This document shows positions 32,815-56,287 of a stretch of DNA of 64,000 bases, piece by piece. The DNA is taken from sequence record PP359570; one strand, given 5' to 3'. Origin of the DNA: Escherichia phage ALITA. The stretch's first letter is position 1. Each line of letters starts with the position of its first letter. The notes under the pieces are model-generated. The model was not told the origin of the DNA, did not search any database, and was given only the letters and a program-made list of their open reading frames with translations. The translations under genes and the position numbers were made by a program.

Positions 32815-33792
32815 TTAAGCAACAGTCTGGTCTTCTTTTTCAGGGAAGATTAAACTTGCAATAACACCCAACCCAAGAGTACCTAACACAATATACATAC
32901 TGATCGTCGGATCAATGTGTGCTGGCAGGAAACTCACTTTTGCGTGCAGAGTTTCTGCAAACGGATGATACATCAGTTTTACACCCACAAACACCAGGAC
33001 TACGATAACTGCTTTCTCCAGATGAACCAAATACTTCAGTGCAACACTAAGAACAAAGAACAGAGCACGTAAACCTAAGATTGCACAAAGCATCGAAGAG
33101 AACACCAGCAGAGGTTCTTGTGTCACTGCAATTACTGCTGGAACAGAGTCTACTGCAAAGATTACGTCTACCATTTCCATTACAAACACACAAACCAGAG
33201 CCGGAGTTGCTACACGAACACCATTTTTGATTGTGAAGAACTTCTCACCATCCATCTGATCAGATACAGGGAACAGCTTACGAACAATACGAGTAGCCCA
33301 GTGTTTAGAGTAATCAATTTCTGCATCATTATCCCCAGCGAATACCATTTTAGCCGCACAGAAAAGGATGACAGCACCGAAGAAGATATTAACATACCAG
33401 CCCAAACTCAACAAGTAAGTACCTACTGCTACAAACACACCTCGGAAGACAATTGCACCTGCAATACCCCAAAGTAGAATCTTGTGCTGCAAGTGTGTGC
33501 TTTTAATACCAAAACTTGCGAAGACTGCCACAAATACTACTAAGTTATCTACAGAAAGAGATTTCTCCAACACATAACCACTCAAGAACAAGCTCGCAAA
33601 ATCAGCACCGTGTTGGAAGTATACAAAACCATAGTAGGCTAATGATACCCCAATCCAGAAAATTGACCAGCCAATTGCAGATTTAAATGAGATCTCTTTG
33701 TTTTCTCTGTGTCCAAAGAAGTCAATACAAATCGACAAGACTAAAATACCCACTAAAACAACCACATCAATAATTGGGAAACCCAGTTGCAT
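32815..33792 (-). CDS. TerC-family integral membrane protein
   Basis: 325 aa, multi-pass; motifs EKSLSVDNLVVFVAVF and IFAVDSVPAVIAVTQEPLLVFSSMLCAILGLRALFF. Confidence 0.85.
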   Translation of the reverse strand: MQLGFPIIDVVVLVGILVLSICIDFFGHRENKEISFKSAIGWSIFWIGVSLAYYGFVYFQHGADFASLFLSGYVLEKSLSVDNLVVFVAVFASFGIKSTHLQHKILLWGIAGAIVFRGVFVAVGTYLLSLGWYVNIFFGAVILFCAAKMVFAGDNDAEIDYSKHWATRIVRKLFPVSDQMDGEKFFTIKNGVRVATPALVCVFVMEMVDVIFAVDSVPAVIAVTQEPLLVFSSMLCAILGLRALFFVLSVALKYLVHLEKAVIVVLVFVGVKLMYHPFAETLHAKVSFLPAHIDPTISMYIVLGTLGLGVIASLIFPEKEDQTVA

Positions 33793-34348: not shown

Positions 34349-35065
34349 TTATTTCAGTTTGTAAACAATTACATTTAAACCTTTGTTCACTAGAGTTTCT
34401 TCGATCATAAGTTTTACAATATTCCAAGAACCTCCAGCCAAACCACAACCAAGCATTGGTAAACCTACAATTTTACCGCCTGAAGATACAACATCGTCTC
34501 CCATACTATCTAACGCATTGTAGATAGCTTCATAATTCAGGTCACGCTTACCTTCCTCACGACGACTATAACCATATTGTCCATATAAATTATAAATTGT
34601 CAAATTGTTTTCTGTATATTTGGTAAACGTACCTAATTTTTTATAATCACCACGTTTAGTGGCACAATCTGCTTTAAACGCACCAGGCCACTTGCTTTTA
34701 ATTTTTGGTGCAATACCACTACCCATAGTGCAAAAACAGTTACAGCAGTGTGCTATAGCGTCTATATCGCCTCTCTCGGCTGCTGCTAAAAGATCACCGT
34801 ATACCTCAATGATACCTGCCGGATAACTTGTTACAATTTCATCTTCCCAATACATTTTCTCTACACCACCGATCAGTGCAAAGTTTTGTGTAATGCGATC
34901 ATCAATATAGTTAAGACCTGAAACATACACAGCGTATTCATCCTGTGCTGTAATACCTTGCACACGAATTCTTAAGACACCATCTTTATCTGTTGCTACA
35001 CGCCCAAAATCTTTTTCTGTAATATTGGTGATAGGATCTCCGAAAGTCATTACTTTATTAGACAT
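34349..35065 (-). CDS. Macro-domain-like protein (putative ADP-ribose/nucleotide-derivative processing)
   Basis: Start at ATG with SD AAAGGGG (MSNKVMTFGD...); DAIAHCCNCFCTMGSGIA resembles macro DAIVNAAN..GGGV block; later GLPMLGCGLAGG. Confidence 0.45.
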   Translation of the reverse strand: MSNKVMTFGDPITNITEKDFGRVATDKDGVLRIRVQGITAQDEYAVYVSGLNYIDDRITQNFALIGGVEKMYWEDEIVTSYPAGIIEVYGDLLAAAERGDIDAIAHCCNCFCTMGSGIAPKIKSKWPGAFKADCATKRGDYKKLGTFTKYTENNLTIYNLYGQYGYSRREEGKRDLNYEAIYNALDSMGDDVVSSGGKIVGLPMLGCGLAGGSWNIVKLMIEETLVNKGLNVIVYKLK

Positions 35066-35915
35066 AATAATCCCCTTTAACATTAGGTTTGTTGATAATG
35101 TTGCTTTCAAAAAATTGACGTAGGAAATCAAAGTTCTCTTTGTATTTTTCAATGTTATTGTAACCTTCTGCAAGGCAACCAAAGAACAGTTGTTCTACAT
35201 AATACAAAGGAAGTTGTGAAAGTGCAATTTTAAAATCAACTTCGCTTTGACTCATTAGATACTTAATAGGACGAACCAAACATTTAGCATCAGCTTCTTG
35301 CTTAATCATTTTAATAAAAGCTGCCAGATTATTGATATAGTTGAAGTTAAGTGCAGCTTCGGTGTTGGCTTCTGTACCTTCATACTTTGCAAAGTACAGG
35401 AAAAACGTATCGTTTTCAACACCTTCTTTGTCTAAAATTTCAATAAGTTTTTCTTCGTGTGTTCCTGTAATATTAACATCATCAATGAAAATCAGAGTTT
35501 TATTACCCCAGAAATCACGATTGATAGAGAAAGTGTCACCATCGATCAAAGCCTTACGATCTTCTTTGCTAAGAAATCCATAATCATTGATATAGCTCAC
35601 TTTACGATGAACGATATCCCACTCCACTGGTTTACCACCTTTGATAGAGATTAGGTAGTTGAGGTGATCTACAAAATGTTCAGATAACACTGTAGCTGCA
35701 TTTTTCACATAGTTATATGGAGATGGAATAACAACAAAACTTTCATTTACCAGTCGTTCTTCATACTTAGAAAAGAAACTTTCAGCCAGAATGCGCCCCA
35801 TTCTTTTTGCTGCCTGGTTACTACCAAACTTTAGTTTGGAATAATCTGCAATGTTAAATTTTGCTTCCTTCAGGTTAGTAAAAGTATTAGCAAAATGTTG
35901 AATTTGATTACGCAT
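35058..35915 (-). CDS. Phosphoribosyltransferase (PRTase) family protein
   Basis: 285 aa; PRPP-binding-type motif LIFIDDVNITGTH. Confidence 0.7.
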   Translation of the reverse strand: MRNQIQHFANTFTNLKEAKFNIADYSKLKFGSNQAAKRMGRILAESFFSKYEERLVNESFVVIPSPYNYVKNAATVLSEHFVDHLNYLISIKGGKPVEWDIVHRKVSYINDYGFLSKEDRKALIDGDTFSINRDFWGNKTLIFIDDVNITGTHEEKLIEILDKEGVENDTFFLYFAKYEGTEANTEAALNFNYINNLAAFIKMIKQEADAKCLVRPIKYLMSQSEVDFKIALSQLPLYYVEQLFFGCLAEGYNNIEKYKENFDFLRQFFESNIINKPNVKGDYYV

Positions 35916-36564
35916 TAATAAGTTCCTCTTTTTTAAGTTTAGCCAACAAGTCTTCTGGATTAATAATATGACAGAACTTCATCCCTATGTCAACAGCTTT
36001 TCCATCATAAATCAAACTATCTCCAACGTGTAAAATCTCTTCTGGTGCGAGATCAAACGTCACCATTTCATCAAAAGAGAGTTTAAAAAACCTAGGATCT
36101 GGTTTACACAAGCAAAACTCGTCAGAAAAATGCATAAAGTCAAATGGTAATTTTGTTAAGCCAGAATATACAGCTAAGAAACTACCTGGTACAAAATTAG
36201 TATTGCTCTTAATACTCAAAGAGTAGGTTGAACTTAGCTCTTCCAACTTCTTGCAAAGTTCAGGATTCAATGTTGGAGGATGTTTTATAAACATTGCCAA
36301 ACAATCTCTTTTTAACCCATCCACTTTATCAAGATCAATGTTCAAACGAGTAGAAAGTGTTACCCAAGCATCCTTAGACGTTCCACAAATGCCTTTTTCT
36401 GCTTTTAAATCCAAGAAAGTTTTTACCTCTTTGTATACGGTAGCTGCTTCTGCCTCAGAGCAAGAGGCATACTCGGCAATAACCTTGTTGCGCTCTTCTG
36501 CATACAAAGGGTTAGCAGTAATAAGAGTATTCCATACATCAAAAGAAATATGCTTAACAGTCAT
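35908..36564 (-). CDS. HAD-superfamily hydrolase (phosphatase-like)
   Basis: Start at ATG with SD GGAGG (MTVKHISFDVWNTL); HAD motif I FDVWNTL and motif IV HVGDSLIYD. Confidence 0.6.
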   Translation of the reverse strand: MTVKHISFDVWNTLITANPLYAEERNKVIAEYASCSEAEAATVYKEVKTFLDLKAEKGICGTSKDAWVTLSTRLNIDLDKVDGLKRDCLAMFIKHPPTLNPELCKKLEELSSTYSLSIKSNTNFVPGSFLAVYSGLTKLPFDFMHFSDEFCLCKPDPRFFKLSFDEMVTFDLAPEEILHVGDSLIYDGKAVDIGMKFCHIINPEDLLAKLKKEELINA

Positions 36565-36566
36565 TT

Positions 36567-36722
36567 TTAATCCTCCGTCCAAAAGAATATCATCTGCTTA
36601 ATTTTATTGATTTCTTGATGTAGTAACTTTCCAGCATGTGATTGATCTTTAATATTGACAGCAAGAATTTCAAGTTCCGTTAGTTTTTCTTGGATAGCTT
36701 TATATTCATCATCTGTAAGCAT
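36567..36722 (-). CDS. Small hypothetical protein
   Basis: 51 aa (below ORF-track cutoff); SD AAGGGGAAG; stop 2 nt before HAD gene start. Confidence 0.3.
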   Translation of the reverse strand: MLTDDEYKAIQEKLTELEILAVNIKDQSHAGKLLHQEINKIKQMIFFWTED

Positions 36723-36971: not shown

Positions 36972-38132
36972 TTAGTAAGAACGACCACCAAACACATACT
37001 CTGTGTAGTTTTTACGTTCTTTGTTTTTAATAACAACTTCAATGTTGTTGCCTTTATCATCGGTGAACACAAAGTGATAACCGTCACCACCCATTGTACG
37101 GATGTGTTTTTCATCATACGTCAGCAAGATACGGTCTACACCCCAGTAGTAGTCACCTTCTTCATCTTTGTCTTCTACTGTAACGACCCCTTCCATTTCA
37201 GGAAGATGCTCTTCTCCTAGCTTATGGTCTACAGCTACAACATAACGATTACCGCTAAACAAACCCTGTGCTGTCATACCGTCAATATCGGTATCTGCCG
37301 AAACATCTCCTGTACGATCTACACCGTTAACTTTCAGGAGTTTAACTTCTTTTGCAGCATAGCGGTGTTCAGTAATACTGATACCCATTAATGCAAGTGC
37401 ATCAGAGAATTTGTCATTAGGGTAACGGTTAAGTTCTTCTACTAGTGACTGAACAATATCAAAGTTCAAGTCCACGGAAAGATTATAAAGCGTTTCAAAA
37501 TCTGGTAAAAAGGCTTTGTTCTCCAGATTTTTAGCCAGATAGTCATCCATAGTAGCTTTAGGTAGTTTCTTATAGCTAAAACTGTAGAAAATACGGCTAG
37601 GACGATTACGCAAAAATTCTGATACATAACCATCATTTTTAGTCAATACAAACAGCTTGTCATAGCCACCTACACCATCCAGCAGAGTAAGCAAACCATC
37701 CTGTGCATCTTTTTCAGCATACAGTTTATCAAATTCATCGATCATAATCATCACAGGTTGTGTGATTTTAGACATAAAATTGATAAAGCCTTCGCCATTA
37801 AAAGCACTACCGATAGAAATAGTAGGAATACCCATTTCACGAAGAGCAGAAGACAGCATTTTAGCTTGCAAAGTTTTACCACTACCCTTCGTACCCTCAA
37901 GGAGAACACCTGTGTTTTTACCTTTGCGGCTAAGGAACGTCTTGATAATACGTTCTGATTTATCATCAGTATCACCGTATGTTACTGAAGGGACTTCCAT
38001 ATCGTTTTTAGGATACAGGAAGAACTCACCACTTTGAGTAACACCTACACCAAAAGTTCCTGCTGGAATTTCTTCAATATCTGTACCAGATTTCTGACGC
38101 AGGAAGATTTGATTGCCGAATACTGTAAACAT
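36972..38132 (-). CDS. P-loop AAA-type ATPase (paralog of 53127-54254)
   Basis: 386 aa; Walker A LLEGTKGSGKT, Walker B MIMIDEFDK. Confidence 0.75.
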   Translation of the reverse strand: MFTVFGNQIFLRQKSGTDIEEIPAGTFGVGVTQSGEFFLYPKNDMEVPSVTYGDTDDKSERIIKTFLSRKGKNTGVLLEGTKGSGKTLQAKMLSSALREMGIPTISIGSAFNGEGFINFMSKITQPVMIMIDEFDKLYAEKDAQDGLLTLLDGVGGYDKLFVLTKNDGYVSEFLRNRPSRIFYSFSYKKLPKATMDDYLAKNLENKAFLPDFETLYNLSVDLNFDIVQSLVEELNRYPNDKFSDALALMGISITEHRYAAKEVKLLKVNGVDRTGDVSADTDIDGMTAQGLFSGNRYVVAVDHKLGEEHLPEMEGVVTVEDKDEEGDYYWGVDRILLTYDEKHIRTMGGDGYHFVFTDDKGNNIEVVIKNKERKNYTEYVFGGRSY

Positions 38133-42754: not shown

Positions 42755-45529
42755 TTAGTTTACCAGTTTATTTATATCTGGTAAAAGATTTATTTCACCT
42801 AAGAAATCACCTTCACCTTCCTCTAGCCAACTCTCATATGCTTGTGCATGATTATAGTTACCATCAAAAGAATCTGCAACAAATTTTTCTACAGTTTTTC
42901 GAGATGTGCCAGCACCAAATACACCAAGTTTAATACCATTGATCGGTAAAGTGGTGCTTGTGGGTACTTTCTCTGTTGCAACACGGTTGATATCTATAAT
43001 CTCCTGTACGGTTGTGTTCCATTGTAAGCATTTAACACAACGGGTATGCGCTACATACAGTAGGTTTCGCTCTGCCTCTTCCAGTCCTACCCATTCACCA
43101 GTCTTTTTATCATAGTTGGAAGGAAAATCATTAGCAACAATAACCTGATCCCACTCCAAACCTTTAGACTTGTGTGCTGTAGTCAGTGTGACTTTTGCTG
43201 TAGGAGAATTTCTATGCGTTCTAAGTGTATGTGCTATAGTGTTTGCCTTACCAGAAACTACGATGTTTAACAAGCGTTTAGCATCTGGATCAGCCTCTGC
43301 ACACTCAACAAATTCATCCCAGTCTGCGTAAGGTAATACAGTTTCATGTTTTACTTTCTCAATATCTCCTCTCCGAAGAGCATTAACACTATCTACCATA
43401 GAGATAAAATCCCTGGTATCTACGTTAATAATAATTTCTTCCCCATCTGCAATACGATCCATTGCCTCCATAAGCAAGGTTAAATTCTTGCGAAAGATGA
43501 TAGTGTAAGGTTTTGTATAGTCTACAACATCTGATTTGTAGCTACCTACTACAGTATCAAAGCCTTTACCAACCAAAGGATGACGCAAAGGTTCTTTATC
43601 GCTTAAAATCATATTGGCAATGTTTGCCACTTTGGGGCCAAAACGGAAGCAAGCAGTTAATGGAAGTTCTGCCCCATACTTAGCTGTTTCAATCATCATA
43701 TTAGAGCTACCTCTAAATTGATAAATGCAGTTGTGGCTAAGAATTTCATTGCCAAAGAAGTTAGCAGTATCCTCTACTTCAATATCATAATAGATACCCT
43801 CACTATCTACAATGTCCACAATCTCTTCTGCCGTTACAGTATCACCATCTTTTACCAACACAGACATGCCTTTAAACAAACCCGCTGCCGGAATTAAGTT
43901 ATATTTGGCACTGTTCACAGAGGACATGCATTCTTTTAAAGATGCAAACGGAACTATTTCAAGGATCTTTTGTGCAAAACTCAATGCTTCACGATAAGAA
44001 TTGAAATATTTACGTACACGGTAACGACCTTCCAATTTAGCAGCACTTACGCTTACACCTGCTTTAATCAGTGAAGAATAGATCGGCATTTCACTTTCTG
44101 TCCACTCAAAACTAACTTGTGTTCCTTTACAACCTTGTGCTCGCAAAGTCACTGTTAGCATTTTTCTTTCATCTACTGCACAATTGATGCTGTGCCAGTG
44201 TGGATAAGCAAAATGATAATCTTTATCCTCTAAAAGTTTAAAACCATTTTGTCCGAATTGTTCAAAGATGTTATTGATCCTTTCTTGATTAATGCCGCGT
44301 GAACTTGCTTCAAATACACAAGTAGGAATGCCATATTGTAAACTGTAAGCCATTTCTTTTTCCATAGCAGCTTCACGGTTTTCAACAATATCCAACACCC
44401 ATAATTTCTGTGCTTTTTCAGAACGTGTACGTTGCCCCAGTTTAGAAAAACCTTCTTTATCATCGAATTTGTTAGTGATCCCTACTCGGAAACCTAAATC
44501 TTTCCTCCACATTAGGTATACCACCATCTGATCATCTTTCAGAACATAGGATGAAGCCCAAATACGATGGTTATGTGTCATATCTAAAGTTTTACCTGTG
44601 GCAGTAATAATATTCCTACCTTTTGTACGTGTAGATAAAGTCTTATTTGTTACTTTTCTAAATGTAACTTTACCATTAGAATAAGACTCTACCTTATCAC
44701 CGATTTGCAGGTCTTTCATTGTAACCTGACCATTCTCGGTATTAAGTACCGTGTTTTCCGACACACATTGGAATTCATCGCCCACTACCACAATTTGTTT
44801 TGCAGATTTAGCATTTCGCAGAATAGACAAGAATGCAGGGTTAACATCCTGGAATTCATCACCAAAAATAATATCATAACCAAGATCAGCACCAGACAAT
44901 TCAAACAATTTTACATAGGTGTCATGCGTCATTAAAGTATCTGTGTTAGGATCGATGCGCTCTCGCCACAATTGTTTTGCATACTTAACTACTTCTGTAA
45001 TTAGTTTGTGTTCGTTAATACCTTTTCTTTTAATATCTGCAAGATGTACACTAGGAAAATGTTTACGGCTGATAAAAGGATCATCCGAAAATTCAAACTT
45101 ACCTACGGTTTGCTTGATCATTAAACCGATCATAGCACGAGTTAAAAGTGTTTTACCTCGTTTATCAATAAGATTATTAATCTTAAATTTCTTTGCTATC
45201 TCACTACCTGTACCTGCAACGTTAACATACTGTCCTTCTGGTCGTGACAGTTTTGCACGTAAACGATGATCCAGGAATTGATAGCAAATAGAATGCAATG
45301 TACGGCATTCTACATTTAGTGGCATCTTACGTCGTGCTTCTTCTGCCATGCTTTTATTGAAAGCTAAGTAAAGAATGCGATCTTCTGTACTGTTAGCCAG
45401 CAAATAAAGTGTTGACGTTTTGCCTGATCCAGATTTAGCTTGGATAGTTAAAAAGCGATGGTCTGGAAAAGCCTCCTTAATAGCTGTTTGCTCTTCTGTT
45501 GGAGTGAAGCTCAACTCTTTCTTAGCCAT
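42755..45529 (-). CDS. UvrD/Rep-family SF1 helicase interrupted by an intein
   Basis: Walker A AKSGSGKTS; motif II IFGDEFQDVN; motif III split as VVVGDEFQ | intein | CIYQFRGS; start set at ATG with SD (MAKKELS). Confidence 0.85.
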   Translation of the reverse strand: MAKKELSFTPTEEQTAIKEAFPDHRFLTIQAKSGSGKTSTLYLLANSTEDRILYLAFNKSMAEEARRKMPLNVECRTLHSICYQFLDHRLRAKLSRPEGQYVNVAGTGSEIAKKFKINNLIDKRGKTLLTRAMIGLMIKQTVGKFEFSDDPFISRKHFPSVHLADIKRKGINEHKLITEVVKYAKQLWRERIDPNTDTLMTHDTYVKLFELSGADLGYDIIFGDEFQDVNPAFLSILRNAKSAKQIVVVGDEFQCVSENTVLNTENGQVTMKDLQIGDKVESYSNGKVTFRKVTNKTLSTRTKGRNIITATGKTLDMTHNHRIWASSYVLKDDQMVVYLMWRKDLGFRVGITNKFDDKEGFSKLGQRTRSEKAQKLWVLDIVENREAAMEKEMAYSLQYGIPTCVFEASSRGINQERINNIFEQFGQNGFKLLEDKDYHFAYPHWHSINCAVDERKMLTVTLRAQGCKGTQVSFEWTESEMPIYSSLIKAGVSVSAAKLEGRYRVRKYFNSYREALSFAQKILEIVPFASLKECMSSVNSAKYNLIPAAGLFKGMSVLVKDGDTVTAEEIVDIVDSEGIYYDIEVEDTANFFGNEILSHNCIYQFRGSSNMMIETAKYGAELPLTACFRFGPKVANIANMILSDKEPLRHPLVGKGFDTVVGSYKSDVVDYTKPYTIIFRKNLTLLMEAMDRIADGEEIIINVDTRDFISMVDSVNALRRGDIEKVKHETVLPYADWDEFVECAEADPDAKRLLNIVVSGKANTIAHTLRTHRNSPTAKVTLTTAHKSKGLEWDQVIVANDFPSNYDKKTGEWVGLEEAERNLLYVAHTRCVKCLQWNTTVQEIIDINRVATEKVPTSTTLPINGIKLGVFGAGTSRKTVEKFVADSFDGNYNHAQAYESWLEEGEGDFLGEINLLPDINKLVN
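43730..44767 (-). mobile_element. Intein (~346 aa) inserted in helicase motif III, with a central putative homing-endonuclease region
   Basis: N-terminal Cys (CVSENTVL), block B TxxH (LDMTHNH), C-terminal ...FFGNEILSHN followed by extein Cys. Confidence 0.7.
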
Positions 45530-46552: not shown

Positions 46553-46915
46553 TTAAACGTTTTCTAAATCTTTTAAGGCATTACCCAACGTTAGAACAAT
46601 AACATCGTTTGCTGCCTCTTCCCCATTGATATTGGTGAAATTTGGTGTGACAAAAGTAACCATATAAAACTCGTCCACCTGGAAGACAGCAATAACACCA
46701 TCCATCTTAACATCTTGACGAAAGGAAAAACCAATCATCTTCTCTTGCAAAGGCATATCCCCTTCCTTCATTACTGCCAGGGAGTTTTCAGGAATGTTAT
46801 ATTTATCTGCTCCGATGTAGATGTACGTAATGTTATCTTTATCGTGATGATACAGGGTTGCTTTTTCCATATCTAAACCTGACAGATCAAATACGTTAAT
46901 TTCTTGTGTAGTCTT
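46553..46915 (-). CDS. Hypothetical protein
   Basis: Start moved to internal ATG to avoid overlap. Confidence 0.4.
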   Translation of the reverse strand, partial: KTTQEINVFDLSGLDMEKATLYHHDKDNITYIYIGADKYNIPENSLAVMKEGDMPLQEKMIGFSFRQDVKMDGVIAVFQVDEFYMVTFVTPNFTNINGEEAANDVIVLTLGNALKDLENV

Positions 46916-47282
46916 CATAAATATCCTCCCAAATCCAATAATCATCTGTGTAAGTAGGATGCCTTTTATCCCACTCTGTTCTAGCCCAAGCAACCGCTGC
47001 TACCAACACATCACCATGACAAGGTTGAGGTGAGCAGAAGCAAACTAAATCTTTCCCTTCTAATTCTAACAAATCTTCAAGAGTGATTTTACCACAACGA
47101 ATTTGCTCCCACAACCACTCTTTATATCTTTGTATAGTTGATCCTCGTGGTTCATCATCCTTTAACTTAAAAGGATTTGCAAACTTTGAGGCTTTTAACC
47201 CCATATGAGGCATAGCTCTGCCAATGTACACTGCACCTTCAGGTATTACTTTACCTAAATGGTAGAAATTTAATACTTTCAT
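46896..47282 (-). CDS. DUF4326-like protein
   Basis: Start at ATG (MKVLNF...) one nt after upstream stop; motifs VYIGR, ANPF, LVCFCSPQPCHGDVL. Confidence 0.5.
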   Translation of the reverse strand: MKVLNFYHLGKVIPEGAVYIGRAMPHMGLKASKFANPFKLKDDEPRGSTIQRYKEWLWEQIRCGKITLEDLLELEGKDLVCFCSPQPCHGDVLVAAVAWARTEWDKRHPTYTDDYWIWEDIYEDYTRN

Positions 47283-47283
47283 A

Positions 47284-47634
47284 TTAACCCAAACACATCT
47301 GTGCAATCAAGCCCTGTATAAATTTATTAGCTTCTTTACTGTCGTAATCAGTTTCTTCTGGATATCCATCTTCATCGTACACAACTGTACCTTCAATATA
47401 CCCTGCCTCAATTAAGGCACGGATCATATCAAATTGCCAGCATGAGTTACCAAATGGACGTTTACCATTAAAACACTCTTCTTCTCTCCATAACGTAGAG
47501 AGTAGTTGTCGGAAATATTCCCGTACAGTGACAGTACCAAGATCTGAATCCTCAAACATAACATCCAGGGCATCAGGATTGCTTTTCTCTACATAAGGAA
47601 TATATTTAACACCATTAATAGTTACATCAAGCAT
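47284..47634 (-). CDS. Hypothetical protein
   Basis: 116-aa ORF. Confidence 0.5.
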   Translation of the reverse strand: MLDVTINGVKYIPYVEKSNPDALDVMFEDSDLGTVTVREYFRQLLSTLWREEECFNGKRPFGNSCWQFDMIRALIEAGYIEGTVVYDEDGYPEETDYDSKEANKFIQGLIAQMCLG

Positions 47635-53126: not shown

Positions 53127-54254
53127 ATGAAATACACGATTTATGGTGATATTGTAAGTGTAAATAAAGATATGGGCGTGGAATCTAACTATCTTCCACC
53201 TGGATTCTATACTGTTAGTCGTGATCCCCTTGGCAATTATTTTTTAAGCCGTGGTAATCTAACAGGTGTACCGGATGTTTTGTATGGTGAAACAGAAAAA
53301 CGAGCAAATCACGTTATCCGTACATTCCATCGCCGGAGTGCACAAGGTAAAAACACAGGCTTGCTTCTGACAGGAACTAAGGGCAGTGGTAAAACTATGT
53401 TAGCCAAACTCATTAGTCGTGACCTTGTAGAAGAAGGTATTCCAACTATTATGGTTACTCAAGCCTACAGCGATGCTAATTTCATTGAACTTATTAGCAA
53501 GATCACCGACAAAGCAGTGATTATTTTTGACGAGTTTGATAAAGTATATGAGAAGAAACAAGATCAAGAAGCACTTCTCACTTTGTTAGATGGTACTGGG
53601 AGTGGTAATAAACTGTTTATTCTAACTAAAAACAGTGGTTTTATCTCTGAATTCTTTTTAAATCGTCCTAGTCGTGTGTTTTATAATTTTAATTATGATA
53701 AAATCTCACTAGAAACTATGATTGACTATTTAGATAAAAACTTGGATAACAAAGCACACTTTGATAATTTCCAAAGGCTTTGGGATGTAAGTTTAGAGTT
53801 GTCCTTTGATGTGATCCAAGGTATAGTAGAAGAACTTAATTTCTACCCTGATTTATCCTTTAAAGAATGCATCTCTATGATGGGCGTTTCTTTGGGTGGT
53901 GGTAATAAATGGGATATCAGCAGCGTTGTTATTAATGGAAAACTTCAGAAAGTTAGCTGGGTATCTAGTTGGCATAACTTCACACCTGCAATCTTCTTAG
54001 GTGGCTCGTGCACACTAGACGTGTACTTGTCATCTCCAAGTGATGCAGACTCTAAAGAAGCCCTTGCTAATAGCTCTTACGTGGTTTTTGATGATGAAGG
54101 CGATGCTCGAATTCCATTGAATGCGACAAAAATGAAAGCAGATCTTATTACAGGCGGTAAAATCGTTGTGTTTAGTGATGATCCAGAAGATTCTTTCCGT
54201 ATTGTTCTGGAACCAACTATCACCAATGGTGCAACTTTGGCAAGCGTGTTTTAA
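53127..54254 (+). CDS. P-loop AAA-type ATPase (paralog of 36972-38132)
   Basis: 375 aa; Walker A LLTGTKGSGKT, Walker B IIFDEFDK; co-linear similarity to the minus-strand paralog. Confidence 0.75.
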   Translation: MKYTIYGDIVSVNKDMGVESNYLPPGFYTVSRDPLGNYFLSRGNLTGVPDVLYGETEKRANHVIRTFHRRSAQGKNTGLLLTGTKGSGKTMLAKLISRDLVEEGIPTIMVTQAYSDANFIELISKITDKAVIIFDEFDKVYEKKQDQEALLTLLDGTGSGNKLFILTKNSGFISEFFLNRPSRVFYNFNYDKISLETMIDYLDKNLDNKAHFDNFQRLWDVSLELSFDVIQGIVEELNFYPDLSFKECISMMGVSLGGGNKWDISSVVINGKLQKVSWVSSWHNFTPAIFLGGSCTLDVYLSSPSDADSKEALANSSYVVFDDEGDARIPLNATKMKADLITGGKIVVFSDDPEDSFRIVLEPTITNGATLASVF

Positions 54255-54328: not shown

Positions 54329-55735
54329 ATGCCAGCACCAAAATCATGGGAACAATATAAAGAAGAATTAACACCCCTTGCTAAAAATCACAACATTCAG
54401 ATTCTGGGTTATATTGGTGAATGGAAAGGGAGCAAGACTAAACTTAAGCTATCTTGCTCTGATCATGGGGAGTGGGAAAGTACCATAATCAATAGCTTTA
54501 AAACTAAAGGCGGTAAATGTTGCCCCGATTGCAATGGTCGTAGAAAAGTAACAGAAGAAAAGGAATGTATTTCCCTTGTTGATGTTGCTAAAGAAAGAGG
54601 GTTTACTTTTATAGGTCTTGCCGAAGAGTGGCGAGGTGTGCTAACAAAAATCCGCATAGTTTGCCCTAAACATGGAGAGTGGAACACCACGACCATTAGT
54701 GGTTTTAGGAAGGGACGTGGTTGTCCGGCATGTGCAAGTAATAAGCCGTTAACATGGGAAACAGAATTACCGATCTTGGAAGAGATAGCACAGAAGAAGG
54801 GGTATCAGGTGTTAGGGTACGTGGGAGAATGGAAAGGGATTGATACAAAACTTGATTTGTTGTGTCACTGTGGTAACAGATGGGATACTACAAGTATTAA
54901 CAGTTTTAAACATGATCATGGTTGTCCTTTATGTGGGTATGAGAATACAAGGAAGGCACAAACAATACCCGACGATCAACATATTGCAGATTTCTTTTCT
55001 ACAGGGAAATTTAAGGAAGGCACTATCTTTACCAATACAGGGAAACGTAGTTGTAGTAAAAACAAGGACATTATCTGGATGATCGAATGTCCTGTTTGCT
55101 CTCATGATGAGTATGTGCAAGCAGGTGTATGTGATGGTAAGTTTTATATGACACGTAGCGATCTTAAGGCTGGACACTTGCCCTGCCGCTGTGCAACTAA
55201 CTCTCATTATACAGAAAATCAGATTACCTACAGGGTAAAAAAGGAAGTAGAAGGGAGAGGGTATGTCTGGGTAGGTTGGATCGGTAAACCGTCTATAAGA
55301 CTGGGTAATTTTAAATATCTTTGTCTTGTTCATGGGGAACAAATTGGTAGTGCTTATCGCTTACTATATCAGGATAATGGTTGTCCACAATGTGCAGGTC
55401 ATAGTCAGCAGCAATTGTATGTTAATGTTGTTAAAGATAATGGTATTATAGTTGCTCTTAAGTTTGGTATATCTAAAGATAGTGCTAGGAGATTAAACAT
55501 TCAAAATAGGCGTAATATGTTTTTTATGGAGCGTATTTGTTTATATGATTTTAGTACAGTGAAGCAGTGTAAGGCTGCTGAAAGAGCTATAAAGAAAAAA
55601 TTAAAAACTGGTATCTTAACAGCAAGAGAGTTGAAAGATGGTTATACAGAAACAGTAAGTGTTTCTGATTTGGAAAATCTTCAAAAAATTATTACACAAT
55701 ATGGTGGCAAATTAGTATACAGTAAGGAGGTGTAA
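54329..55735 (+). CDS. Zinc-ribbon repeat protein with C-terminal T5orf172/GIY-YIG-like domain
   Basis: 468 aa; four or more repeats of C..HGEW...F...GCP.C; C-terminal LYVNVVKDNGIIVALKFGIS...RRL block. Confidence 0.55.
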   Translation: MPAPKSWEQYKEELTPLAKNHNIQILGYIGEWKGSKTKLKLSCSDHGEWESTIINSFKTKGGKCCPDCNGRRKVTEEKECISLVDVAKERGFTFIGLAEEWRGVLTKIRIVCPKHGEWNTTTISGFRKGRGCPACASNKPLTWETELPILEEIAQKKGYQVLGYVGEWKGIDTKLDLLCHCGNRWDTTSINSFKHDHGCPLCGYENTRKAQTIPDDQHIADFFSTGKFKEGTIFTNTGKRSCSKNKDIIWMIECPVCSHDEYVQAGVCDGKFYMTRSDLKAGHLPCRCATNSHYTENQITYRVKKEVEGRGYVWVGWIGKPSIRLGNFKYLCLVHGEQIGSAYRLLYQDNGCPQCAGHSQQQLYVNVVKDNGIIVALKFGISKDSARRLNIQNRRNMFFMERICLYDFSTVKQCKAAERAIKKKLKTGILTARELKDGYTETVSVSDLENLQKIITQYGGKLVYSKEV

Positions 55736-56287
55736 ATGCGGATTACTGATAAGTATGTGTTCTTCTTCTCGGCAAAAGATGAATTTAGCAACTGGTATCT
55801 ATCATCTTTTATTGAACCTTTAGCTCCCAAGTATAATAATTCTATTACAAGTTCTGTTGAATTTACTTGTGTGGAACAATATATGATGTGGAGAAAAGCA
55901 TGTTTGTTTTATGATTACAGTATTGCATCTTCTATTTTAACCGGAGATCTAAGATATACAGGAGAAAAAGAACAAGCATATTATAAACGACTAGGCAGAT
56001 TAGTTAAAGATTATGATGAAGATACCTGGGCTTCTTTACGGGAGAAGATTGTCAAGCGTGGTTTGTATCTTAAATACACACAAAATGAAGATCTCAAAAA
56101 TAAACTTATCGCTTACGCAGATAAGGAGTTCGTAGAGGCAAGCCCCTATGATTCTATTTATGGTATCAAAATGGGGATGTGGGATCGGGACGTGGAAAAT
56201 AAGGATTGTTGGAAAGGGCAAAATCTTTTAGGAAAATGGCATACAGACCTTGCTGTTTATCTAAAATCACAATCTGATATTTCCTGA
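55736..56287 (+). CDS. NADAR (YbiA/DUF1768)-family protein
   Basis: 183 aa; strong SD AAGGAGG; blocks FFFSAKDEFSNW, VEQYMMWRKACLF, LGRLV, FVEASPYDSIYGIKMG alignable to E. coli YbiA. Confidence 0.75.
   Translation: MRITDKYVFFFSAKDEFSNWYLSSFIEPLAPKYNNSITSSVEFTCVEQYMMWRKACLFYDYSIASSILTGDLRYTGEKEQAYYKRLGRLVKDYDEDTWASLREKIVKRGLYLKYTQNEDLKNKLIAYADKEFVEASPYDSIYGIKMGMWDRDVENKDCWKGQNLLGKWHTDLAVYLKSQSDIS

What the first reader, a model, noticed from the sequence alone, without database searches (positions are those of the whole stretch)
46896..47282. DUF4326-like protein of unknown role in the middle-gene block
Motifs VYIGR, ANPF and LVCFCSPQPCHGDVL fit the DUF4326 pattern. Its function is not established. 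It lies in the same genome as NADAR and macro-like genes, so a role in nucleotide or ADP-ribose metabolism is a guess.
Basis: inference. Interest (0 to 1): 0.35.

Follow-up and report, generated by a model that had tools for sequence, protein, structure and literature searches.

The report
Phage DUF4326 gene, ADP-ribose/NAD-linked enzyme
This is a real 128-residue phage gene from the widespread but never-tested DUF4326 family (the family of phage T4 nrdA.1).

Summary
Window 46896-47282 (minus strand) is an ATG-to-stop ORF of 128 aa. It matches Pfam DUF4326 at 77 bits against a cut-off of 25, and all three quoted motifs are at invariant positions. The window comes from a phi92-like E. coli phage (Justusliebigvirus); identical genes are already in GenBank.

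No experiment on this family was found. The Aravind group's comparative-genomics papers predict a Cys-dependent rhodanese/phosphatase-like enzyme that acts on ribose-linked phosphates of ADP-ribose derivatives. I reproduced the contextual basis independently:
- Among 50 long family members, 8 are fused to NADAR, 7 to SLOG and 1-2 to Macro.
- In diverse viral contigs, SLOG and NADAR genes are fused or directly adjacent to DUF4326.
- In rV5-like relatives the gene lies beside or between NadR-like and PnuC-like NAD+ salvage genes.

In this window, however, the NADAR and macro genes are 9-12 kb away.

A confident AlphaFold model shows strand, Cys-rich loop and helix, with the invariant residues at strand ends. 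It has no significant match to any solved structure, and the proposed link to RapZ-C could not be verified.

The common GenBank label "NrdA-like ribonucleotide reductase" is a mis-annotation derived from T4 nrdA.1. Verdict: an ordinary member of a known uncharacterised family; modest interest.

The parts
46896..47282 (-). DUF4326 coding sequence, 128 aa plus stop (orthologue of JohannJBalmer bas62_0084)
   Evidence: ORF; Pfam PF14216 at 77.3 bits; 98.7% DNA identity to MZ501084; 100% protein identity to phage 92CQ
46962..47282 (-). Folded core domain, residues 1-107: strands 3-5, 18-19 and 79-81; helices 46-62, 68-72 and 89-107
   Evidence: AlphaFold2 with a 77-sequence alignment: mean pLDDT 89.5, with blocks 1-110 scoring 89-98
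47016..47042 (-). Putative active-site loop C81-F-C83-S-P-Q-P-C88-H89, between strand 79-81 and helix 89-107
   Evidence: Codons read directly; C81, C83, C88 and H89 invariant; C81, C88 and H89 still invariant in 50 multidomain members; loop length C.C-x(n)-CH is n=4 in 263, n=5 in 4 and n=8 in 34
46899..46961 (-). Clade-specific acidic/aromatic C-terminal tail (residues 108-128, ...DDYWIWEDIYEDYTRN), predicted disordered
   Evidence: pLDDT 48-54; a 'GYWNW' motif is shared only with close relatives
46553..46918 (-). Downstream 121-aa ORF of unknown function; its start overlaps the DUF4326 3' end by 23 nt (translational coupling likely)
   Evidence: no Pfam hit; homologue in the same position in L010
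47284..47634 (-). Upstream 116-aa ORF of unknown function; its stop codon lies 1 nt before the DUF4326 ATG
   Evidence: no Pfam hit
55736..56287 (+). Context gene elsewhere in the window: stand-alone NADAR (YbiA-like) protein
   Evidence: Pfam PF08719 E = 3.4e-36; PADLOC PDC-M42C
34349..35083 (-). Context gene elsewhere in the window: DarG-like macrodomain protein, first of an overlapping macro / PRTase_3 / HAD gene set (to 36582)
   Evidence: Pfam Macro, PRTase_3 and Hydrolase hits; PADLOC DarG E = 1.5e-13; annotation of MZ501084

Best explanation
The gene encodes a small stand-alone enzyme of the DUF4326 family. Shown here: it is a conserved, selected gene. It has a compact alpha/beta fold in which every invariant polar residue sits at the C-terminal end of a strand or at the start of the last helix: N5, Y19, G21, R22, then N36-P37-F38, then C81/C83, then C88-H89. 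That is the usual place for an active site in Rossmann-like folds. Also shown: the family is recurrently fused or adjacent to NADAR and SLOG domains, which are N-glycosidase or nucleotide-binding domains acting on ADP-ribose and ribonucleotides; to Macro domains; and, in related phages, to NadR/PnuC NAD+ salvage genes. Inferred: C81, at the end of strand 3, is a nucleophile. With the loop and C88-H89 it performs phosphate hydrolysis or transfer on a ribose-linked phosphate of an NAD+-derived molecule, such as ADP-ribose, a phosphorylated derivative of it, or the ribose phosphate left after N-glycosidic cleavage. It would act together with NADAR, SLOG or Macro enzymes. In the phage this would help destroy or recycle ADP-ribose-type products of host NAD+-based immunity and protect the NAD+/nucleotide pool. 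This is essentially the published in-silico prediction; no step of the chemistry has been demonstrated.
For: Family membership and conservation. Family size: 21,091 cluster representatives at E<=1e-3; tblastn hits in 1,838 of 50,697 phage records. Purifying selection. Fold and placement of invariant residues: together. Fusions: a NADAR-DUF4326 protein whose DUF4326 part is 70% identical to this protein (P0140). Among 50 long members: NADAR 8, YAcAr/SLOG 7, DprA-like SLOG 4, Macro 1, ThsA_Macro 1; domain order confirmed. In 80 viral contigs, 8 carry SLOG and 6 carry NADAR within 10 kb. Outside this phage's own lineage, most of those are fused or within about 100 bp: L033, L041, L042, L043, L050, L060, L074, L077. 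In 13 rV5-like loci DUF4326 is within 3.8 kb of NadR-like and PnuC-like genes, in three different gene orders; that gene pair is the experimentally shown NARP3 NAD+ reconstitution system (PMC13464706). A bacterial copy lies 3-7 kb from NMNAT-like, NAPRTase and PncA-like genes. Published prediction: PMC9503650 and PMC7824862. Pfam DUF488 and DUF488-N3a models hit the same stretch as DUF4326.
Against: There is no biochemical or genetic data for any member. In this window the gene is flanked only by unannotatable small ORFs; NADAR and macro are 8.5 and 11.8 kb away. Foldseek finds no significant solved-structure match: the best hit has E = 1.8, and a dual-specificity phosphatase ranks second at E = 3.1, TM 0.24. 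The loop has no Arg, so it is not a CX5R loop, and it comes in two lengths, 4 and 8 residues; this is unusual for a phosphate-binding loop. Profile comparison with RapZ-C and YeaO is not significant. NadR-PnuC loci in T5-like, ICP1 and Erwinia jumbo phages lack DUF4326 within 6 kb, so it is not a required NARP3 part. The NadR/PnuC linkage is confined to one broad phage lineage and may be inherited synteny.
Confidence: 0.4

Rival explanations
1. Nucleic-acid repair or de-modification enzyme: DUF4326 acts on DNA or RNA (for example ADP-ribosylated or phosphorylated termini or adducts) rather than on free metabolites. It would work with NADAR and DarG-like macro enzymes, which remove ADP-ribose from DNA bases, as a counter-measure to DarT-type defence.
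For: A 4,195-aa polyvalent phage protein carries NADAR, an AlkB-like 2OG-Fe(II) oxygenase, DUF4326 and an SF1 helicase in a row. Other fusions are to DnaA_C HTH, ASCH and DprA-like domains; phrog_30585 'DNA repair protein' matches weakly. The window gene lies 1.3 kb upstream of an intein-containing UvrD/Rep helicase. The window's macro protein matches DarG. NADARs reverse guanine ADP-ribosylation, and phage NADARs neutralise DarTG1 (abstracts of PMC11543638 and PMC11257639). Iyer et al. noted fusions to replication and R-M components.
Against: The 107-residue core has no recognisable nucleic-acid-binding module. The contexts in T-even phages (td-nrdA) and rV5-like phages (NadR-PnuC) are metabolic. 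There is no PADLOC match.
Confidence: 0.25
2. Metal-binding or thiol-redox protein: C81, C83, C88 and H89 bind Zn or an Fe-S cluster, or form a disulfide relay. The domain would then be a structural, regulatory or redox module in nucleotide metabolism, not a phosphate-transfer enzyme.
For: Three invariant Cys plus one His lie within nine residues. The loop length varies and lacks Arg. In T-even phages the gene sits directly upstream of nrdA, whose product depends on thiol reductants (established knowledge). The window also encodes an anaerobic NTP reductase and its activator.
Against: Further invariant polar residues outside the Cys cluster (N5, Y19, R22, N36, R46, D78) point to a substrate pocket. 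C83 is replaced in some members (P0201). The dominant NADAR and SLOG fusions are not explained. AlphaFold cannot show metals, so this rival is untested rather than excluded.
Confidence: 0.15
3. The protein is a ribonucleotide reductase subunit or an NrdA-like protein, as several GenBank records and phrog_24867 label it.
For: Orthologues are annotated 'NrdA-like ribonucleotide reductase' or 'putative ribonucleoside-diphosphate reductase 1 alpha subunit'; phrog_24867 matches at E = 1.7e-28.
Against: The protein has 128 aa, and only DUF4326 is found by Pfam even at E<=1 and E<=10. The label most likely comes from the T4 gene name nrdA.1, a positional name for the small ORF next to nrdA. The ORF in that position in a T-even phage is itself a DUF4326 protein (78.7 bits).
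Confidence: 0.01

Closest known systems
Pfam DUF4326 (PF14216) proteins of phages, giant viruses and haloarchaeal viruses, including the T-even phage ORF at the nrdA.1 position
   Same: Full-length domain match, the same invariant residues, and the same predicted fold. BFVD gives 30 hits at E<1e-3, nearly all of the named ones labelled DUF4326.
   Different: This copy is stand-alone, carries a clade-specific acidic/aromatic C-terminal tail, and is not next to NADAR, SLOG or NadR genes, unlike many relatives.
DUF488 / DUF488-N3a (PF04343, PF22751; E. coli YeaO is a DUF488 member)
   Same: The shared C-terminal signature is a hydrophobic strand, Cys, a short loop, Cys-His and an amphipathic helix. 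Pfam DUF488 models score above their cut-offs on a stretch that is also a DUF4326 domain (P0254), and 3 of 77 close homologues hit DUF488-N3a. A haloviral DUF488 protein is a weak structural match at E = 0.27.
   Different: The window protein itself does not hit DUF488. hhalign against YeaO is not significant, and YeaO lacks the cysteines. DUF488 is also uncharacterised and has no solved structure.
RapZ C-terminal domain (PF22740) and the wider rhodanese / Cys-phosphatase superfamily, where Burroughs & Aravind 2023 (NAR Genom Bioinform lqad029) place DUF4326. The citation was seen; the paper's content is from my memory because the paper is not held.
   Same: Motif-level resemblance, read directly from the sequences: VFDVR / FLPNPHW / AIGCTGGKHRS in RapZ against VYIGR / FANPF / LVCFCSPQPCHGD here. 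The strand, Cys, loop, helix arrangement is typical of Cys-phosphatases and rhodaneses.
   Different: There is no significant profile-profile match (probability <1%) and no significant structural match. There is no CX5R arginine. The loop length varies. Only three short strands are predicted.
NARP3 (phage NadR-like + PnuC-like NAD+ reconstitution pathway, PMC13464706)
   Same: In rV5-like relatives DUF4326 is embedded in or next to this gene pair.
   Different: DUF4326 is not one of the two defined NARP3 components. It is absent from NARP3 loci of three other phage lineages. The window contains no NadR or PnuC homologue.

Membership tests
Pfam DUF4326 (PF14216) | Score above the curated gathering threshold over most of the model | tested here: met
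   77.3 bits against a cut-off of 25; model positions 5-81 of 82
Pfam DUF4326 (PF14216) | Family-wide conserved residues present (N5, Y19-x-G21-R22, N36-P37-F38, C81-x-C83, C88-H89) | tested here: met
   All are present in the window protein; they are invariant or at least 90% conserved in 46-, 77- and 50-sequence alignments
Rhodanese / Cys-phosphatase superfamily (RapZ-C-DUF488-DUF4326 clade) | Catalytic Cys at the C-terminal end of a core beta-strand, followed by a loop and the N-terminus of a helix | tested here: met
   Strand 79-81 ends at C81, the loop is 82-88, and the helix starts at H89, in a model with pLDDT 94-98 in this region.
Rhodanese / Cys-phosphatase superfamily (RapZ-C-DUF488-DUF4326 clade) | Fixed-length anion-binding loop with Arg (CX5R in phosphatases; 6-7-residue loop in rhodaneses) | tested here: not met
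   The loop is C81-FCSPQP-C88-H89 with no Arg; the spacing between C83 and C88 is 4, 5 or 8 residues across the family
Rhodanese / Cys-phosphatase superfamily (RapZ-C-DUF488-DUF4326 clade) | Significant structural similarity to a solved member (rhodanese, DUSP/PTP, RapZ-C) | tested here: not met
   Foldseek against PDB gives no hit at E<=0.001; MKP5 ranks second at E = 3.1, TM 0.24; RapZ is not listed
Rhodanese / Cys-phosphatase superfamily (RapZ-C-DUF488-DUF4326 clade) | Profile-level sequence link to DUF488 and RapZ-C | tested here: inconclusive
   The DUF488 link is supported by overlapping Pfam hits. The RapZ-C link is not: hhalign probability is below 1%, leaving only motif resemblance.
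Ribonucleotide reductase alpha subunit (NrdA) | RNR large-subunit domains (ATP-cone, all-alpha domain, barrel); about 750 aa | tested here: not met
   128 aa; Pfam reports only DUF4326, even at E<=10 across 77 homologues
NARP3 NAD+ reconstitution system | Two-gene NadR-like plus PnuC-like cassette | tested here: not met
   No NadR or PnuC homologue in the window. DUF4326 is neither component, and it is absent from three independent NARP3 loci.
Known anti-phage defence proteins (PADLOC-DB) | Match to any PADLOC model | tested here: not met
   No family at E<=0.01

The most novel reading that the evidence does not exclude
DUF4326 may be an undescribed class of Cys-dependent enzyme. It would complete the removal or recycling of ADP-ribose-type products: processing what NADAR, SLOG or Macro enzymes release or leave behind, either on free metabolites or on nucleic-acid ends. 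That would make it a widespread, unrecognised phage counter-defence or NAD+-economy factor. It is present in at least 3.6% of deposited phage genomes, including T4 as nrdA.1, and in giant viruses.
Probability: 0.3. Interest if true: 0.6.

Novelty: already known. Interest (0 to 1): 0.3.

Why it matters
DUF4326 is one of the larger unassigned viral protein families. Here it had about 21,000 cluster representatives at 50% identity and hits in 1,838 of 50,697 phage records. Members occur in model phages of E. coli K-12, both T-even and phi92-like/rV5-like phages of the BASEL collection. Its consistent coupling to NADAR, SLOG, Macro and NAD+ salvage genes places it in the NAD+/ADP-ribose conflict between phages and bacterial immunity. 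That field has recently yielded the NARP1-3 pathways and the anti-DarT enzymes. A stand-alone 128-aa copy in a phage that plates on K-12 is a convenient handle for the first biochemical and genetic test. The finding itself adds no new kind of element. Its practical outputs are a corrected annotation (the gene is not an NrdA-like reductase) and a sharper list of candidate substrates and partners.

Tried and rejected
- **Single-sequence AlphaFold.** The model was unusable (pLDDT 42.8), so I replaced it with an alignment-based model.
- **PDB sequence searches.** Searches with the protein, the family profile and YeaO returned only chance-level hits.
- **Foldseek against PDB.** Nothing significant.
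- **hhalign.** The DUF4326 profile, including a broader 307-domain profile, gave probabilities below 1% against YeaO, RapZ-C and a 50-sequence RapZ-C alignment.
- **Literature.** A search for PF14216 found nothing, and nrdA.1 gave only two genome-description papers. The key classification paper, Burroughs & Aravind 2023, is not held.
- **Promoter and terminator scan.** No better than shuffled sequence, so no timing class can be assigned.
- **Neighbour-gene clustering around 80 viral DUF4326 loci.** The top cluster was an antisense shadow ORF of DUF4326 itself. All other recurrent neighbours were confined to the rV5-like lineage.
- **DUF4326 as a general NARP3 accessory.** Rejected, because T5-like, ICP1 and Erwinia jumbo-phage NadR-PnuC loci lack it.
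- **Resemblance of P-C-H-G to the P-C-H-R active site of O6-alkylguanine transferases.** Considered and rejected: the MGMT family was not among the Pfam families listed for the 77 homologues at E<=10, and the secondary-structure context differs.
- **The ORF abutting the window's NADAR gene.** It is a CapR/T5orf172-type homing-endonuclease-like protein, not an ADP-ribosyltransferase.
- **dN/dS.** It could not be expressed as a ratio for most pairs because dS is saturated.

Full report
**1. What is at the coordinates**

Window 46896-47282 is a minus-strand ORF. It runs from ATG (47282-47280) to TAA (46898-46896) and encodes 128 aa, MKVLNFYHLGK...EDYTRN. A longer TTG-initiated version (start at 47306) is listed mechanically. 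Homologues begin at MKVLN and N5 is invariant, so the ATG is the real start.

The gene is tightly packed. The upstream 116-aa ORF stops one base before the ATG, and the downstream 121-aa ORF starts 23 nt before the stop codon.

- VYIGR = residues 18-22.
- ANPF = residues 35-38.
- LVCFCSPQPCHGDVL = residues 79-93.

**2. Where the window comes from**

The region is 98.7% identical to Escherichia phage JohannJBalmer (Justusliebigvirus, Stephanstirmvirinae; a phi92-like myovirus). The gene there is bas62_0084, annotated 'hypothetical protein'. A 100% identical protein is encoded by phage 92CQ.

It lies in a long array of minus-strand genes. Downstream of it are two more small ORFs, then an intein-containing UvrD/Rep helicase, an anaerobic NTP reductase with its activator, and a macro / PRTase_3 / HAD gene set.

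**3. Family assignment**

- Pfam DUF4326 (PF14216): E = 1.4e-21, 77.3 bits against a cut-off of 25.
- phrog_464 (unknown function): E = 2.6e-42.
- PADLOC: no match.
- Sequence search of the PDB: no relative with a solved structure.

The family is large. A profile search of 1.84 billion cluster representatives gave 21,091 proteins at E<=1e-3 and 7,120 at E<=1e-10. tblastn found it in 1,838 of 50,697 deposited phage genomes, which is 3.6% and a lower bound. BFVD structural matches cover phages, pitho-, marseille- and pandoraviruses, and haloarchaeal viruses.

Against orthologues of 60-83% amino-acid identity, dN is 0.12-0.35 while synonymous sites are saturated. This means strong purifying selection.

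**4. Anatomy of the protein**

Single-sequence AlphaFold failed (pLDDT 42.8). With a 77-sequence alignment the model is confident: mean pLDDT 89.5, with 89-98 for residues 1-110. Its elements are:
- Strands at 3-5, 18-19 and 79-81.
- Helices at 46-62, 68-72 and 89-107.
- A disordered acidic/aromatic tail at 108-128.

The invariant residues are N5, Y19, G21, N36, L74, C81, C83, C88 and H89. The near-invariant ones include R22, P37, F38, R46 and D78. They fall at the C-terminal ends of the three strands, in the NPF loop, and at the start of the last helix. That is where Rossmann-like enzymes build their active sites.

In 50 multidomain members, C81, C88, H89 and P37 remain invariant, and C83 is nearly so. 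The C-x-C...C-H loop has 4 residues between C83 and C88 in 263 cases, 5 in 4 and 8 in 34.

**5. What is published**

Only eight papers in the library mention DUF4326, and none is experimental.
- Iyer et al. [quoted passage not shown]
- Iyer et al. [quoted passage not shown] - The dedicated classification paper (Burroughs & Aravind 2023, NAR Genom Bioinform lqad029) exists but is not held. From memory, its abstract defines a 'RapZ-C-DUF488-DUF4326 clade'.

**6. Independent test of the contextual link**

(a) Fusions.
- Among the nearest homologues is a NADAR-DUF4326 protein whose DUF4326 part is 70% identical to the window protein (P0140).
- Of 50 longer family members, 8 carry NADAR, 7 YAcAr/SLOG, 4 a DprA-like SLOG hit, and one each Macro, ThsA_Macro, ASCH, DUF3800 and DnaA_C. 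Several are tandem DUF4326 repeats.

(b) Adjacency. In 80 IMG/VR loci, home-made profiles found SLOG in 8 loci and NADAR in 6 within 10 kb. Outside this phage's own lineage, most are fused or within about 100 bp of DUF4326 (L033, L041, L042, L043, L050, L060, L074, L077). That is far from a uniform spread over +/-10 kb.

(c) A polyvalent protein. One 4,195-aa phage protein carries NADAR, an AlkB-like dioxygenase, DUF4326 and an SF1 helicase in series.

(d) NAD+ salvage genes.
- In 13 rV5-like loci, including Salmonella phage PVP-SE1, DUF4326 lies within 3.8 kb of a NadR-like NMN adenylyltransferase/ribosylnicotinamide kinase and a PnuC-like transporter, in three different gene orders.
- That pair is the recently demonstrated NARP3 NAD+ reconstitution system (PMC13464706).
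- Locus L010 shares this window's flanking ORFs and still has NadR and PnuC 1.3-3.8 kb upstream. The window itself has neither gene.

(e) A bacterial copy sits 3-7 kb from NMNAT-like, NAPRTase and PncA-like genes.

Evidence against over-reading these links:
- NadR-PnuC loci of a T5-like phage, ICP1 and an Erwinia jumbo phage have no DUF4326 within 6 kb.
- Two other DUF4326 contexts show no ADP-ribose genes.
- In this window NADAR (55736-56287) and the DarG-like macro gene (34349-35083) are 8.5 and 11.8 kb away.

**7. The 'NrdA-like' label**

Many GenBank records and phrog_24867 call the orthologues 'NrdA-like ribonucleotide reductase'. Pfam reports nothing but DUF4326.

In T-even phages a DUF4326 protein (78.7 bits) is encoded between td and nrdA. 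That is the position of T4 nrdA.1, and one record labels the gene nrdA.1. The label is most likely a positional gene name that has turned into a functional mis-annotation.

**8. Superfamily membership**

- The strand, Cys, loop, helix arrangement fits Cys-phosphatases and rhodaneses.
- Pfam DUF488 and DUF488-N3a models score above their cut-offs on a stretch that is also a DUF4326 domain, and they hit three close homologues.
- RapZ-C shows a motif-level resemblance: VFDVR / FLPNPHW / AIGCTGGKHRS against VYIGR / FANPF / LVCFCSPQPCHGD.

Against membership:
- Foldseek against the PDB gives nothing significant; a DUSP ranks second at E = 3.1 and TM 0.24.
- hhalign against YeaO and a 50-sequence RapZ-C profile gives probabilities below 1%.
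- The loop lacks the CX5R arginine and varies in length.

I therefore treat 'works like a Cys-phosphatase/rhodanese' as a reasonable lead, and 'is a member of that superfamily' as unconfirmed here.

**9. Most likely mechanism and rivals**

| Model | What it proposes | Confidence |
|---|---|---|
| Best-supported | A Cys81-dependent phosphate hydrolase or transferase acting on ribose-linked phosphates of NAD+-derived molecules, together with NADAR, SLOG or Macro enzymes; it would serve phage counter-defence or the NAD+ economy | about 0.4 |
| Rival 1 | The same chemistry, or a related de-modification, on nucleic-acid ends or adducts; supported by the AlkB/helicase polyvalent protein, the DNA-linked fusions, and the DNA-directed roles of NADAR and DarG | about 0.25 |
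| Rival 2 | A Zn/Fe-S or thiol-redox module, suggested by the Cys3-His cluster, the variable loop and the nrdA neighbourhood in T-even phages | about 0.15 |
| Rival 3 | An RNR subunit | about 0.01 |

What is shown: gene reality, family, conservation, fold topology and genomic associations. What is inferred: the nucleophile, the substrate and the biological role.

**10. Verdict**

The gene is an ordinary, already-deposited member of a known uncharacterised family. Its value is as a tractable entry point in a K-12-infecting phage for the first experimental test of DUF4326, and as a correction of a propagated mis-annotation.

Noticed in passing
L088:3893-4219 (Escherichia phage WilhelmHis, MZ501113): The small ORF between thymidylate synthase and nrdA in a T-even phage (the T4 nrdA.1 position) is a bona fide DUF4326 protein (78.7 bits). 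This probably explains why orthologues of the window gene are mislabelled 'NrdA-like ribonucleotide reductase' in GenBank and PHROGs.
   Followed up: yes
L089:3366-6886 (Salmonella phage PVP-SE1) and IMG/VR loci L010, L017, L019-L023, L025, L027-L030: In rV5-like phages DUF4326 lies beside or between a NadR-like enzyme and a PnuC-like transporter, the gene pair recently shown to be the NARP3 NAD+ reconstitution system. Three different gene orders occur. The window itself lacks both genes, and NARP3 loci in T5-like, ICP1 and Erwinia jumbo phages lack DUF4326.
   Followed up: yes
window 34349-36582 (-): Three overlapping genes encode a DarG-like macrodomain protein (PADLOC DarG, E = 1.5e-13), a ComF-like PRTase_3 phosphoribosyltransferase and a HAD-type hydrolase. 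This may be an ADP-ribose or nucleotide-processing module of its own.
   Followed up: partly
window 54329-56287 (+): The stand-alone NADAR gene (55736-56287) is abutted upstream by a 468-aa CapR/T5orf172-type protein that looks like a homing endonuclease. This region is about 211 nt longer than in phage JohannJBalmer, which suggests a mobile insertion or indel.
   Followed up: partly
window 46899-46961 (-), residues 108-128 of the DUF4326 protein: The acidic/aromatic C-terminal tail (DDYWIWEDIYEDYTRN) is predicted disordered. A GYWNW-like motif is conserved only among close relatives, so it may be a protein-protein interaction peptide. Its coding sequence overlaps the start of the next gene.
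   Followed up: no
L077:218-12802 (IMG/VR contig 3300035670_000022): A giant 4,195-aa phage ORF carries NADAR, an AlkB-like 2OG-Fe(II) oxygenase, DUF4326 and an SF1 helicase consecutively in its C-terminal third. It looks like a polyvalent protein; the N-terminal 2,900 residues are unannotated.
   Followed up: partly
window 42755-45529 (-): A UvrD/Rep-family helicase is interrupted by an intein, as annotated in JohannJBalmer. It lies 1.3 kb downstream of the DUF4326 gene on the same strand.
   Followed up: no
window 32815-33792 (-), 36972-38132 (-) and 53127-54254 (+): The window also encodes a TerC-family membrane protein and two AAA+/STAND-like ATPases. One of the ATPases is annotated 'FtsH-like protease' in JohannJBalmer, but only its AAA domain was detected here.
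   Followed up: no
L002:8001-15673 (bacterial assembly GCA_902731075.1, 1.23-Mb contig): A chromosomal DUF4326 gene next to an ankyrin-repeat protein lies 3-7 kb from NMNAT-like, NAPRTase and isochorismatase (PncA-like) genes, separated from them by an IS605/Cas12f-like transposase.
   Followed up: no
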